Shown piece by piece: positions 11,605 through 13,470 of a stretch of DNA of 15,423 nt (its first letter is position 1; each line of letters begins with the position of its first letter). The notes beneath the pieces were generated by a model. It saw nothing but the letters and a program-made list of their open reading frames with translations, had not been told where the DNA came from and ran no database searches. The position numbers were made by a program, and so were the translations under genes. Origin of the DNA: Okeania sp. (lineage in GTDB: Bacteria > Cyanobacteriota > Cyanobacteriia > Cyanobacteriales > Microcoleaceae); the NCBI RefSeq assembly GCF_035285525.1, contig NZ_JAYKGW010000188.1, forward strand, positions 1 to 15,423. Reading direction: 5' to 3'.

Positions 11605-13470
11605 TTAATCAGTGGCAGAAGACGAAATAATCCGGAAACCCCTACTGTCGTCGCAACTATCGGCAACATCGTCACCACGCCAGGCACACCGACAAATGCC
11701 AGAATTGATCACCCAGCAACCACCACGGAGAACTCTACTACCACTATCTCCTCCAGTTTCCCAAGCGCTTCCGTCAGTAGGCGCTTCGTTATAATTATCG
11801 TGCCAAATATCCTGACACCATTCCCAGACATTCCCGTGCATATCGTATAAACCAAAAGCATTGGGTGGAAAAGTTCCTACATCAGTTGTTTCTTCTCTAT
11901 ATTTTCCTTTAGGAGCATTGCCATAAGGAGAGTTACCGTCATAGTTAACCAAATCAGGTGTTATAGTTTCTCCAAAATAAAATGGTGTTCTTGTTCCTGC
12001 ACGACAAGCATATTCCCACTGACTTTCACTAGGCAATTTCCAAGTTTTTCCTGTTTTCAGGGATAGCTCTCTACAAAATTCTATAGCATTATACCAATTC
12101 ACACTTTCTACTGGGCGCTTTCCTCCTTTACCTTTAAAAGAAGAAGGATTTTTTCCCATAATAACTTGATATTGTTCTTGAGTAATAGGGTATTTACTCA
12201 TATAAAAAGGTTGAAGAGTTACTTGATGTTGCGGACTTTCACTGTTATCTCTTTCTTTCTCATTTTTTGGTGAACCCATTAGAAAACTTCCTCCAGGAAT
12301 ATAAACCATTTCTAACTTAATACCATTACCTAAATCTTCTATTTTTTGCCTAGCACTTCCCAAAGTAACCTTAGTAATATAGCCTGATTTATTGACAGTA
12401 ATAACTTCAAAAGTAAAGAGTTCTCCTTTCTCTAATTCTTCTGTTGGTGATTGACATATTGTTAGTGGAAAAGTATATTTTTTTTGTCGTTGAGCAGTAG
12501 ACTGAATAATTGATAGTTGAGATATTTCTGGCGAAAAAGTAGGTTTTGGTAGTGTAAAATTAGGTGTTTGTGGTTGAAAATTAGGTTCAATAAGAGACAA
12601 AATTTCTCCTGCATTTTTAAACCTTTTTTTAGTTGCTCCAACAATCATTTTATCCAATATTTCTCCAACTTCATCACTTATATCAGACCTTAAATAATTT
12701 CGCCAAACCCAATCATTTTCGCTCACATCAAATAAATTAAAAGGTTCCACACCAGTTAATAAATTAATACAAGTCACACCCAAACTATAAATATCGCTAG
12801 CAAAAGTTGCTTTTCCTATTGCTTGTTCTGGTGCAACATATCCGACAGAACCTATAACAGTTCCCATTCTTGCTAAAGCAGTCATAGTCGCATATTTAGC
12901 TGCCCCGAAATCTACTAATACCATATCTCCCCCCTTTTCCAGGGCATCAGGGGAGGATTTCCTAATAATATTTTCTGGTTTAATATCTCGATGAATTACC
13001 TGCTGAGAATGAATAAATTCTAACACAGGCAACAAACTTTTTAACAACTCTAAAATTTGACTTTCATCAAAAGCTCCTGACTCTTCTAACTCTTGTTGTA
13101 AATTTTGCCCGTCGATAAATTCTTGTACTAAATACTGTCGATTATCCTGAGTAAAATATGCGAAAAGTTCAGGAATTTGTGAATGTTTACCTAAACTATC
13201 CAAACGTTCAGCTTCTTGAGCAAATAATTCCGCTGCTTTTTCTAAAGTGTTAGTTCCTTGTGCTTGAGGAAAAAATTGTTTAATTACACAAAAAGGCTTT
13301 GAGGGTTTATCTTCATCTACTGCTTGAAAAGTTATGCCAAAACCACCTTGACCGATAATTTTCAAAGGGCAATAACGTTCTCTTAAAATTAATTTTTCAC
13401 CACAACTTTGACAGAATTTTGTTTCTAGTGGGTTGGATTTTAAACAGTTAGGATTTAAACATTGAGCCAT
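11605..13470 (-). CDS. Zinc-ribbon Ser/Thr protein kinase fused to a C-terminal FGE-sulfatase (C-type-lectin fold) domain
   Basis: 621 aa. N-terminal CLNPNC...CQSCG ribbon. Kinase motifs GQGGFG, CVIKQF, HRDIKPENI, DFGAAK, VAPEQ. Linker, then MVYIPGGSFLMGSP, PQHQVTL, WEYACRAGT, YDMHGNVWEWCQD, RGGCW...RGFRII, typical of the FGE/SUMF1-like fold. Confidence 0.9.
   Translation of the reverse strand: MAQCLNPNCLKSNPLETKFCQSCGEKLILRERYCPLKIIGQGGFGITFQAVDEDKPSKPFCVIKQFFPQAQGTNTLEKAAELFAQEAERLDSLGKHSQIPELFAYFTQDNRQYLVQEFIDGQNLQQELEESGAFDESQILELLKSLLPVLEFIHSQQVIHRDIKPENIIRKSSPDALEKGGDMVLVDFGAAKYATMTALARMGTVIGSVGYVAPEQAIGKATFASDIYSLGVTCINLLTGVEPFNLFDVSENDWVWRNYLRSDISDEVGEILDKMIVGATKKRFKNAGEILSLIEPNFQPQTPNFTLPKPTFSPEISQLSIIQSTAQRQKKYTFPLTICQSPTEELEKGELFTFEVITVNKSGYITKVTLGSARQKIEDLGNGIKLEMVYIPGGSFLMGSPKNEKERDNSESPQHQVTLQPFYMSKYPITQEQYQVIMGKNPSSFKGKGGKRPVESVNWYNAIEFCRELSLKTGKTWKLPSESQWEYACRAGTRTPFYFGETITPDLVNYDGNSPYGNAPKGKYREETTDVGTFPPNAFGLYDMHGNVWEWCQDIWHDNYNEAPTDGSAWETGGDSGSRVLRGGCWVINSGICRCAWRGDDVADSCDDSRGFRIISSSATD
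11632..11730 (-). other. Putative DGR-type variable region (VR) at the 3' end of the kinase-FGE gene
   Basis: Encodes LRGGCWVINSGICRCAWRGDDVADSCDDSRGFR. Scaffold residues are kept while the positions between them are heterogeneous and mostly NNC/NNT codons. See findings. No template repeat in the window. Confidence 0.4.

What the first reader, a model, noticed from the sequence alone, without database searches (positions are those of the whole stretch)
11632..11760. 3' end of the kinase-FGE gene looks like a diversified DGR variable region, with no template repeat or reverse transcriptase in the window
The last strands of the FGE/C-type-lectin fold read LRGGCWVINSGICRCAWRGDDVADSCDDSRGFRII. 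The fold scaffold is intact (RGG.W, CR.A.R, GFR) and the length is canonical. As I recall, relatives in this cyanobacterial kinase-FGE family have Asn runs at the intervening positions (RGGSW NNN..N CRSA.R NNNN.DN.NNN.GFR). Here those positions carry a scatter of V, I, S, G, D, A and C. Of the 12 codons at those Asn positions, 11 are NNC or NNT (ATC AAT ATT GGT GAC GAT GTT AGT GAC GAC AGT); the exception is GTG. That is the product expected from adenine-specific mutagenesis of AAC/AAT template codons by a diversity-generating retroelement. Several non-Asn differences also fit A-to-N changes, for example AGY Ser to TGY Cys. CLec/FGE-fold C-termini are the classic DGR target, and signalling-domain fusions have been reported as DGR targets in filamentous cyanobacteria. 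I found no RT, no Avd and no A-rich copy of this segment in the window. This would therefore be a remote (trans) target or a frozen, orphaned VR on a sensor kinase.
Basis: partly seen in the sequence, partly recalled or inferred. Interest (0 to 1): 0.8.

Follow-up and report, generated by a model that had tools for sequence, protein, structure and literature searches.

The report
Decayed DGR variable region, sensor kinase
The tail of this cyanobacterial sensor-kinase gene bears the scars of a retroelement that rewrites ligand-binding codons, but this copy has lost the downstream signal that relatives keep, so it is most likely a frozen relic of a system already known from the sister genus Trichodesmium.

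Summary
Gene 11605-13470 (-) of this Okeania sp. contig encodes an intact Ser/Thr kinase fused to an FGE/C-type-lectin domain. Its last 33 codons (11632-11730) are adenine-poor: 12% A against 35% in the rest of the gene, and 0 of 33 third positions are A. Twelve of 13 hypervariable codons are NNY against a 49% background (P about 0.001). Close relatives in Okeania, Dapis and Trichodesmium are hypervariable at exactly these positions. In ten relatives none of the 48 invariant columns of this region is A, against 28 of 97 upstream (p = 3e-6). That is the signature of adenine-directed DGR mutagenesis, shown without a template repeat. Such kinase-FGE targets are already described in Trichodesmium erythraeum, which has 12. 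This copy, however, looks orphaned. It lacks the conserved 3' element that follows every actively diversified relative. It also differs from the family-invariant scaffold at six positions, all synonymous, so it has not been homogenised by the shared template. I could not reach an RT or template repeat for this genome, so an active remote target remains possible at about 0.25. Verdict: a new member of a known kind, of modest interest.

The parts
11605..13470 (-). Bifunctional Ser/Thr kinase - FGE/CLec gene (621 aa; MEB3342693.1 / WP_324238125.1, Okeania sp. taxid 3100323)
   Evidence: ORF list and translation. Pfam Pkinase and FGE-sulfatase hits. Identity of the record.
12619..13365 (-). Hanks-type protein kinase domain (residues 36-284), catalytic motifs intact
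   Evidence: Pfam PF00069, E = 9e-38. Motifs GQGGFG at 40, HRDIKPEN at 160, DFG at 187 and APE at 213.
11626..12312 (-). Complete FGE-sulfatase / C-type-lectin-fold domain (residues 387-615)
   Evidence: Pfam PF03781, E = 3.9e-55, profile positions 4-254 of 255. Sequence match to the solved DGR variable protein TvpA (2Y3C, E = 6.5e-26), and to PvdO and the FGEs.
11632..11730 (-). VR core (codons 581-613, LRGGCW...GFR): adenine-depleted block on the class-A scaffold W xxx S xx CR x A x R xxxx A x xxxxx x GFR
   Evidence: for codons, A content and NNY statistics. for the family scaffold. for invariant columns without A. nhmmer against the class-A VR profile gives 54 bits, the lowest of the class-A copies compared.
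11704..11712 (-). Hypervariable block 1 (V587 I588 N589; GTG ATC AAT). GTG differs from the family-invariant third base C, a synonymous GTC>GTG change
11665..11676 (-). Hypervariable block 2 (G599 D600 D601 V602; GGT GAC GAT GTT). Two third positions (GGT, GAT) differ from the family-invariant C
11644..11658 (-). Hypervariable block 3 (S605 C606 D607 D608 S609; AGT TGC GAC GAC AGT). The third position of the first AGT differs from the family-invariant C
11605..11631 (-). Post-VR tail (IISSSATD*). Homology to relatives runs to about 11614 (TCGTCTTCTGCC) and then stops. The last codons and the stop codon lie in unrelated sequence. The family's GTTCCTAGGATTCTTCCCCT, CT-rich tract, GC hairpin and TCGAA-T-run are all absent
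   Evidence: Alignments. Motif searches in the window with mismatches allowed find nothing. Relatives carry the element.
11580..11611 (+). Dispersed motif of about 32 nt (TATAACTATTCAACCAGATATGATATTAATCA) that abuts the homology breakpoint and supplies the stop codon. It may mark the rearrangement that removed the original 3' end
   Evidence: blastn and inspection: copies in L004, L017, L020 (two copies) and L011. The link to a rearrangement is inference only.

Best explanation
Codons 581-613 of the kinase-FGE gene are a DGR variable region (VR) by descent.

How the region arose (mechanism taken from the literature). A DGR reverse transcriptase copies a template repeat (TR) with errors at adenines. 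The cDNA replaces the 3' end of the target gene. This rewrites AAY (Asn) and AGR/AGY template codons on the ligand-binding face of the FGE/C-type-lectin fold and leaves the scaffold untouched.

What this copy keeps. It retains the mutational scars: very low adenine content, NNY codons at the Asn-template positions, S/C and R/W/G alternations, and an intact scaffold.

Why it is probably no longer a target (inferred). The cis-acting 3' element has been replaced by unrelated sequence from about 11613 onward. In every actively diversified relative that element follows the VR and consists of GTTCCTAGGATTCTTCCCCT, a CT-rich tract, a short GC hairpin, and TCGAA plus a T-run. In addition, the non-adenine scaffold has drifted at six synonymous third positions instead of being re-homogenised by the shared template. 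I therefore read this as one fixed variant of a hypervariable sensor domain on an otherwise functional Ser/Thr kinase.

Shown here: the composition and codon pattern, the family-wide A-specific variability, the missing 3' element, and the scaffold drift.

Inferred: that the 3' element is required for homing, that the drift post-dates the last homing event, and that a DGR once acted on this gene.
For: 1. Window composition. A is 12% in the block against 35% in the rest of the gene. Third-position A is 0 of 33 against 39%. NNY codons are 12 of 13 against 49% (P = 0.0014).

2. Family hypervariability. The closest 120 homologues, from Okeania, Trichodesmium, Dapis and Hydrocoleum, vary at exactly these positions on a fixed scaffold.

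3. Template-free test. In ten class-A relatives, 0 of 48 invariant VR columns are A, against 28 of 97 in the adjacent upstream part of the FGE domain (Fisher p = 3.2e-6).

4. Homogenisation in relatives but not here. Third-position identity among relatives is 0.88 in the VR against 0.78 upstream. For the window against relatives it is 0.63 in the VR against 0.78 upstream. L013 and L014 are 94.9% identical upstream but 69.4% in the VR.

5. Scaffold drift. The window mismatches 6 of 48 family-invariant columns, while relatives show 0-3 each (Fisher p = 0.004). All six are third positions and all are synonymous: GTC>GTG, GGG>GGC, GGC>GGT, GAC>GAT, AGC>AGT and TTT>TTC.

6. The 3' element in relatives. 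It is present after each of the 17 class-A and class-B VR copies recovered with its motifs from genomes and metagenomes; the T. erythraeum IMS101 copy carries its CT-rich part. It is absent from the window even when mismatches are allowed.

7. A bona fide cassette, L025 (VP1-VP2-bAvd-RT-TR). The TR encodes an Asn-run version of the same scaffold. Of its TR/VR mismatches, 18 of 22 and 20 of 23 fall at TR adenines. The CT-rich tract, hairpin and TCGAA-T-run lie downstream of the VRs only and are not in the TR, so they are a target-side element.

8. Independent frozen examples. Class-C orthologues, whose VR-position peptide is nearly the same in five proteins (P0028, P0030, P0032, P0033, P0044), lack the element. 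P0017 has a degraded element.

9. Published precedent. In T. erythraeum IMS101 one TR serves 12 VR genes, mostly kinase plus DUF323/FGE. Five VRs carry mostly silent non-A mutations. Four of those five also have mutations in a 35-bp conserved 3' stretch and were judged to be no longer targets (PMC4143802).
Against: - I found no TR or RT for this genome or for class-A VRs in general. Both genome scans returned nothing, and the window's genome appears to be absent from or masked in the collections. The six scaffold differences could therefore reflect a species-specific TR rather than decay.
- No close orthologue of this gene exists in the databases; the best match is 76% identical. Conservation of the VR across strains, which would prove freezing directly, could not be checked.
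- The need for the 3' element rests on conservation and on analogy with the phage BPP-1 IMH and hairpin requirement. It has not been tested in cyanobacteria.
- Some variable columns in my alignment may reflect drift or TR differences rather than template adenines; only 36 of 50 contain A in at least one relative.
- A mis-join at the 3' end in a draft assembly cannot be formally excluded.
Confidence: 0.65

Rival explanations
1. This is an active remote (trans) target. A DGR cassette on another contig of this Okeania genome carries its own TR variant, one that shares the six window-specific scaffold bases. That cassette still rewrites this VR and recognises the target without the CT-rich/hairpin element used in relatives.
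For: - Remote targets are the rule in this clade. T. erythraeum has 12 VR genes, of which only the two that flank the RT are described as neighbouring it, and 76 remote targets were counted across cyanobacteria.
- None of the six relatives' loci I fetched with 10-kb flanks (L017 is a class-B FGE-only gene), nor the 8-kb contig L020 (also class B), holds a DGR-type RT.
- The fraction of A retained at template-A positions (0.24) is within the range of active relatives (0.24-0.38).
- The domain and the reading frame are intact.
Against: - The 3' element is conserved across VR classes A and B and across Okeania, Dapis and Trichodesmium. A related form occurs in the L025 cassette. It is entirely missing here.
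- The TR-derived scaffold is identical at all 48 invariant positions in relatives from at least two genera. A private TR with six changes in another Okeania would therefore be unexpected.
- Third positions in the window's VR are no more similar to relatives than its flanks are.
Confidence: 0.25
2. The region is unrelated to DGRs. A surface loop region of an FGE-fold domain diverged by ordinary mutation and selection, and codon bias happens to give NNY codons.
For: No TR or RT was seen. FGE-fold proteins without DGRs also vary in these loops; more distant homologues show conserved, non-hypervariable tails.
Against: - Ordinary divergence does not predict 0 of 48 adenines among invariant columns (p = 3e-6).
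- It does not predict 0 of 33 third-position A in a gene with 39% third-position A.
- It does not predict 95% identity upstream beside 69% in the VR between near-orthologues.
- It does not predict variation limited to first and second codon positions with fixed third bases.
- The closest characterised relatives are experimentally supported DGR targets (PMC4143802).
Confidence: 0.05
3. The missing 3' element is an assembly artefact. The draft contig is chimeric just after the VR because the VR and its 3' element are multi-copy repeats. The real locus would then have the canonical element.
For: - The contig is a short draft contig of 15.4 kb.
- VR-family repeats are numerous in these genomes.
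- The breakpoint abuts a dispersed 32-nt motif.
Against: - The breakpoint lies outside the most repeated segment.
- The VR on its upstream side is itself unique, with six private scaffold bases, so drift is seen independently of the junction.
- An ORF with a proper stop codon continues through the junction.
Confidence: 0.04

Closest known systems
Trichodesmium erythraeum IMS101 DGR and its 12 VR genes (Pfreundt et al. 2014, Sci Rep 4:6187; PMC4143802)
   Same: - The sister genus Trichodesmium carries the system.
- The targets are mostly Ser/Thr kinase plus a C-terminal DUF323/FGE domain, with the VR at the extreme 3' end.
- Most targets lie away from the RT and TR; only two VR genes are described as flanking the RT.
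- A conserved 3' stretch follows each VR.
- A subset of VRs carries mostly silent non-adenine mutations together with a damaged 3' stretch, and was interpreted as no longer targeted.
- The window gene is 67% identical to the IMS101 protein P0005.
   Different: - The window VR belongs to a different scaffold class: Ser and Ala at fixed positions and a GFRI(V/I)SS tail, where IMS101 has Pro, RRD and GFRLVCDGGRTL.
- Here the 3' stretch is completely replaced, not point-mutated.
- The RT and TR of this genome have not been seen.
Cyanobacterial DGR clade with kinase-CLec variable proteins (Vallota-Eastman et al. 2020, PMC7517822; clade 5E of Dore et al. 2024, PMC10907252).
   Same: - Protein kinase is the most common N-terminal partner of the diversified CLec/FGE domain.
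- Remote variable proteins and non-diversified VP homologues coexist with cassette-encoded ones.
- In L025 the TR encodes Asn runs on the RGGSW...CRSA..R...GFR scaffold, and its mismatches with the VRs fall at adenines.
   Different: That survey does not include Okeania. The window copy has no cassette within its contig and lacks the target-side 3' element that the L025 VRs have.
Bordetella phage BPP-1 DGR (Mtd, TR, Brt, Avd; IMH and downstream hairpin)
   Same: It is the prototype mechanism, stated here from established knowledge and from the citations in PMC4143802 and PMC7517822. Adenine-specific mutagenic retrohoming acts on the 3' end of a CLec-fold gene, and cis elements at the VR 3' end (IMH and a hairpin/cruciform) are required for homing.
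   Different: BPP-1 has a cis target in a phage, and Mtd is not an FGE-type CLec. The cyanobacterial 3' element (CT-rich tract, 5-bp GC hairpin, TCGAA-T-run) differs in sequence, and its requirement has not been tested.
TvpA, Treponema denticola variable protein 1 (PDB 2Y3C)
   Same: It is a solved DGR variable protein with the FGE-type C-type-lectin fold. The window's FGE domain matches it at E = 6.5e-26.
   Different: TvpA is a lipoprotein without a kinase domain, and it lies in a spirochaete DGR cassette.
Formylglycine-generating enzymes (SUMF1) and PvdO
   Same: They share the same Pfam family, PF03781, and the same fold.
   Different: They are enzymes or enzyme-like proteins and are not diversified. 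Nothing here suggests FGE catalysis.

Membership tests
DGR variable region (target of mutagenic retrohoming) | Located at the 3' end of a gene, within a C-type-lectin/FGE-fold ligand-binding domain | tested here: met
   The FGE-sulfatase domain is complete to profile position 254 of 255 at residue 615, six residues from the stop codon. The domain matches TvpA (2Y3C) at E = 6.5e-26.
DGR variable region (target of mutagenic retrohoming) | A cognate template repeat whose mismatches with the VR fall (almost) only at TR adenines | not testable with these tools
   - There is no TR in the window.
- The window's genome was not found in the searchable collections.
- Scans built on {VR base or A} and on a guessed generic TR found nothing.
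- An indirect family-level proxy is met: 0 of 48 invariant VR columns are A.
- Against that inferred template, the window shows 6 non-A mismatches.
DGR variable region (target of mutagenic retrohoming) | A DGR-clade reverse transcriptase (usually with Avd) in the same genome | not testable with these tools
   The 15.4-kb contig has none.
DGR variable region (target of mutagenic retrohoming) | Target-side cis element at or after the VR 3' end (IMH plus hairpin). In this clade it is GTTCCTAGGATTCTTCCCCT, a CT-rich tract, a GC hairpin and a TCGAA-T-run | tested here: not met
   The element is absent from the whole window with up to 3-6 mismatches allowed. It follows every class-A and class-B VR copy recovered with its motifs, and a related form follows the L025 VRs.
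DGR variable region (target of mutagenic retrohoming) | Mutational signature: variation confined to template-A positions (first and second codon positions of AAY codons), adenine depletion, scaffold preserved | tested here: met
   - 12 of 13 hypervariable codons are NNY (P = 0.0014).
- A is 12% against 35%, and third-position A is 0 of 33.
- The scaffold RGG.W / S / CR.A.R / A / GFR is intact.
- A content of 0.13 is VR-like; real TRs have 0.27-0.30.
DGR variable region (target of mutagenic retrohoming) | Ongoing diversification: strain or population variation confined to the VR | not testable with these tools
   There is no close orthologue (best 76%) and no read data. Among relatives the feature is met: L013 and L014 are 94.9% identical upstream and 69.4% in the VR. 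For the window, the lack of scaffold homogenisation argues against recent homing.
Hanks-type Ser/Thr protein kinase | Pkinase domain with a glycine loop, an HRD catalytic loop, and DFG and APE motifs | tested here: met
   PF00069, E = 9e-38. Motifs found at residues 40, 160, 187 and 213.

The most novel reading that the evidence does not exclude
The VR is still rewritten in trans even though it lacks the CT-rich/hairpin element that accompanies every other target in the clade. That would mean cyanobacterial DGR homing can use a minimal or different target signal. A milder variant is that loss of the 3' element through a small rearrangement is a regular 'lock-in' step: a selected variant of a hypervariable sensor kinase becomes fixed, so paralogues specialise by diversifying and then freezing.
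Probability: 0.12. Interest if true: 0.6.

Novelty: new member of a known kind. Interest (0 to 1): 0.3.

Why it matters
The finding extends the Trichodesmium-type multi-target DGR system to another Okeania genome. In that system the hypervariable FGE-fold sensor domains sit on Ser/Thr kinases.

It also gives a clean example of what a retired target looks like. The scars of adenine mutagenesis are preserved, the target-side 3' element is gone, and only synonymous drift has accumulated.

The comparison defines a conserved target-side element for this cyanobacterial clade: a CT-rich tract, a GC hairpin, and TCGAA plus a T-run. That element could be used to separate live targets from fossil ones in genome annotation, and it could be tested experimentally.

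None of this changes current understanding of DGRs.

Tried and rejected
**Searches that found nothing or could not reach the target**
- A scan of genome contigs with a pattern allowing {VR base or A} at each position and a fixed scaffold found nothing, not even the window itself. In hindsight, fixing CGG and GCC was risky, because relatives suggest the template has CGA and GCA.
- A second genome scan with a guessed generic class-A TR (GCN GAN AAH x5 ARR GGN TTY CG) also found nothing. The guess was probably wrong.
- A metagenome scan with the conserved 20-mer returned only VRs, not TRs. later explained this: the element is on the target side and is not in the TR.
- Two scans of viral contigs found nothing.
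- I looked for a cassette beside ten relatives' genes and found no DGR RT next to any of them. L020 holds only a group II intron RT.
- The exact-protein look-up for the window gene failed, as did those for P0010 and P0230.
- The plasmid route gave real cyanobacterial cassettes in Nostoc, Microcystis and Acaryochloris. The RT profile search built from them listed no Okeania or Trichodesmium RT among its best 120, so it does not bear on this genome. It did lead to cassette L025.

**Ideas rejected**
- The AAA+VWA gene at 802-2847 is not a DGR-linked MoxR/VMAP partner. It looks like ChlD, with only a weak bpMoxR match (E = 0.005).
- The AT-rich hairpin at 11491-11551 is not the DGR target hairpin. 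It is about 55 nt beyond the stop codon, is not GC-rich, and has no TCGAA-T-run.
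Full report
**What is there**

The window is a complete 15,423-bp contig of an Okeania sp. (taxid 3100323; proteins MEB3342691-93). The finding lies at the 3' end of gene 11605-13470 on the minus strand. The gene encodes a 621-aa protein with a complete Hanks-type kinase domain (residues 36-284) and a complete FGE-sulfatase/C-type-lectin-fold domain (residues 387-615). The kinase catalytic motifs are intact. The FGE domain matches the solved DGR variable protein TvpA (PDB 2Y3C, E = 6.5e-26) as well as PvdO and true FGEs.

**Is the pattern more than chance?**

I defined the 13 hypervariable positions from the family alignment. Twelve of these 13 codons are NNY, against 49% NNY in the other 580 codons (P = 0.0014). 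Adenine makes up 12% of the 33-codon block against 35% of the rest of the gene. No third position in the block is A, against 39% elsewhere.

**What the family shows**

The 120 best homologues are 70-76% identical at the top of the list and come from Okeania, Trichodesmium, Dapis and Hydrocoleum. They share one scaffold and are otherwise hypervariable: W xxx S xx CR x A x R xxxx A x xxxxx x GFR. I call this class A. Other classes exist on related scaffolds.

I collected DNA for class-A copies from Okeania sp. SIO3I5 (L001 and two tandem genes in L003), from Dapis sp. BLCC M126 (L004), and from metagenome contigs (L005-L015). Ten of these copies were aligned.

- Across the 98-column VR core of the ten aligned copies, 48 columns are invariant and none of them is A. 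In the adjacent upstream part of the same domain, 28 of 97 invariant columns are A (Fisher p = 3.2e-6).
- Variation falls on first and second codon positions, while the third bases stay fixed.
- Near-orthologous copies fall from 94.9% identity upstream to 69.4% inside the VR.
- Third positions are more alike inside the VR (0.88) than upstream (0.78). This is expected if a common template keeps rewriting the region.

Together these give the signature of adenine-directed mutagenic retrohoming, obtained without seeing the template.

**A real cassette for calibration**

I reached L025 through an RT profile search. It comes from a marine cyanobacterial MAG and carries two FGE-fold genes, bAvd, an RT, and a template repeat directly after the RT.

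- The TR encodes RLRGGSWNNNSKNCRSASRNNNNTRDNNNNNIGFRVV. It belongs to templates, not to relatives' proteins.
- Of the TR/VR mismatches, 18 of 22 and 20 of 23 lie at TR adenines.
- TRs have 27-30% A and VRs 9-19%. The window block has 13%.

**Known biology**

In T. erythraeum IMS101 one highly expressed TR, lying downstream of the RT (Tery_1728/1729), is aligned to 12 VR genes. Most are kinases with a C-terminal DUF323/FGE domain. Five VRs carry non-adenine mutations that are mostly silent. Four of those five also have mutations in a 35-bp conserved 3' stretch thought to be needed for homing, and the authors judged them to be no longer targets (PMC4143802).

Kinase-CLec proteins are the commonest cyanobacterial DGR targets, and 76 remote targets were counted in one survey (PMC7517822). 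The kind of system is therefore already described.

**Why this copy looks retired**

1. *The 3' element is missing.* Each class-A and class-B relative recovered with the motif is followed by GTTCCTAGGATTCTTCCCCT and a CT-rich tract. Most then have a 5-bp GC hairpin and TCGAA plus a T-run. The T. erythraeum copy carries the CT-rich part, and the L025 VRs carry a related version. In L025 this element lies downstream of the VRs and is not part of the TR, so it is a target-side signal. The window matches relatives only as far as TCGTCTTCTGCC (about 11614). After that it continues into unrelated sequence that supplies the last codons and the stop codon. No trace of the element exists anywhere in the window, even with mismatches allowed. 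The new sequence begins with a dispersed motif of about 32 nt that also occurs in related genomes. This hints at a rearrangement, but I did not establish one.

2. *The scaffold has drifted.* The window differs from the 48 family-invariant, non-adenine columns at six sites, whereas relatives differ at 0-3 (p = 0.004). All six are third positions and all are synonymous.

3. *There is no homogenisation.* The window's third positions are no closer to relatives inside the VR (0.63) than upstream (0.78). It also scores lowest of the class-A copies compared against the class-A VR profile.

4. *Other retired copies look the same.* Class-C orthologues, whose former VR peptide is nearly the same in five proteins and was read at the DNA level in Okeania hirsuta, lack the element. 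P0017 has a degraded element.

**What could not be done**

I did not find the RT or TR of this genome, or the class-A TR of any genome. The window's genome seems to be absent from or masked in the searchable collections, and both genome scans came back empty. None of the relatives' loci I fetched holds a DGR-type RT, which is what one expects of remote targets.

An active remote target served by a private TR variant therefore remains possible. I put it at about 0.25. Against it stand the complete loss of an element conserved across classes and genera, and the fact that relatives from at least two genera share an identical TR-derived scaffold.

**Verdict**

The block is a DGR variable region by descent (about 0.9). 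It is most likely orphaned and frozen (about 0.65 overall), on an apparently functional sensor kinase. It is a new member of a known kind, and interest is modest.

Noticed in passing
window 2-61 and 484-544 (-): Rfam finds two copies of the nitrogen-stress-induced sRNA NsiR1 (RF02399; 47.6 and 39.1 bits) about 480 nt apart. They match direct repeat D5. From my own knowledge, not checked here, NsiR1 is best known from heterocyst-forming Nostocales and Okeania forms no heterocysts; if so, its presence here is worth a look.
   Followed up: no
window 11580-11611 (+): A motif of about 32 nt (TATAACTATTCAACCAGATATGATATTAATCA) overlaps the kinase-FGE stop codon and abuts the point where homology to relatives ends. 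Similar copies occur in L004, L017, L020 (two copies) and L011. It may be a small dispersed repeat or the end of a mobile element.
   Followed up: partly
window 11491-11551 (-): An AT-rich hairpin of about 60 nt lies downstream of the gene (DNA fold z-score -3.6). A weak terminator-like site lies at 11480-11495. This is not the GC hairpin plus TCGAA-T-run seen in relatives.
   Followed up: partly
window 11201-11290: A tandem octamer array (GGTGATGG/GGTGATAG, about 11 units) lies immediately after the stop codon of the Kir-like channel gene.
   Followed up: no
window 3008-3036, 3487-3517, 10156-10186, 13624-13654: A dispersed repeat of 25-30 nt (CTGTTCCCAGTTAAGCGTTCCC and its complement) occurs in four intergenic places, one of them just upstream of the kinase-FGE gene. 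A somewhat similar GTTCCCTGTTCC run lies downstream of the Okeania hirsuta gene in L027.
   Followed up: no
window 706-794: A 14-nt AT-rich tandem repeat (AATTAAGAATTTAG-like, about 6 units) lies upstream of the AAA+VWA gene.
   Followed up: no
window 802-2847 (+), 3636-8024 (-), 10285-11202 (+), 13843-15405 (+): Neighbouring genes are:
- a ChlD-like Mg-chelatase AAA+VWA protein, with only a weak bpMoxR hit;
- a 1462-aa RTX calcium-binding repeat protein;
- a KirBac-type inward-rectifier K+ channel;
- a zinc-ribbon/NYN-domain protein with internal 72-nt and 51-nt repeats.

None is DGR-related.
   Followed up: partly
L001 12016-12669; L003 12398-13042; L027/L028 7543-7740: Uma2-family endonuclease genes lie downstream of several relatives' kinase-FGE genes, directly after the gene in L001 and L003 and about 2.8 kb away, beyond a beta-lactamase gene, in L027/L028. 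The recurrence is unexplained.
   Followed up: no
L002 10001-12649 (T. erythraeum IMS101, P0005): This kinase carries two tandem FGE domains, each ending in a VR-like block. The C-terminal VR of the near-identical protein P0004 equals the internal VR of P0005. This could reflect copying between the two VRs or assembly collapse.
   Followed up: no
L026 1947-2417 and 5097-6353: The P0017 gene has a partly decayed VR and a degraded 3' element. It is flanked by an IS200/IS605 TnpA (Y1_Tnp) gene and a TnpB/OrfB gene. This fits the proposal in PMC7517822 that such elements disperse variable-protein genes.
   Followed up: no
L015 (metagenome contig JAAUYJ010184428.1), about 1060-1180 (-): A VR fragment truncated at its 5' end has an intact 3' 20-mer but no upstream FGE coding sequence. 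It may be a remnant of a target, or of an aborted or ectopic homing event.
   Followed up: no
L018 and L023 (Microcystis aeruginosa FD4 plasmid p1FD4): A DGR cassette is split by insertion sequences. The FGE gene and avd lie at 8.8-11.3 kb, followed by transposase ORFs. The RT, the TR and a second FGE gene lie about 15 kb away.
   Followed up: partly
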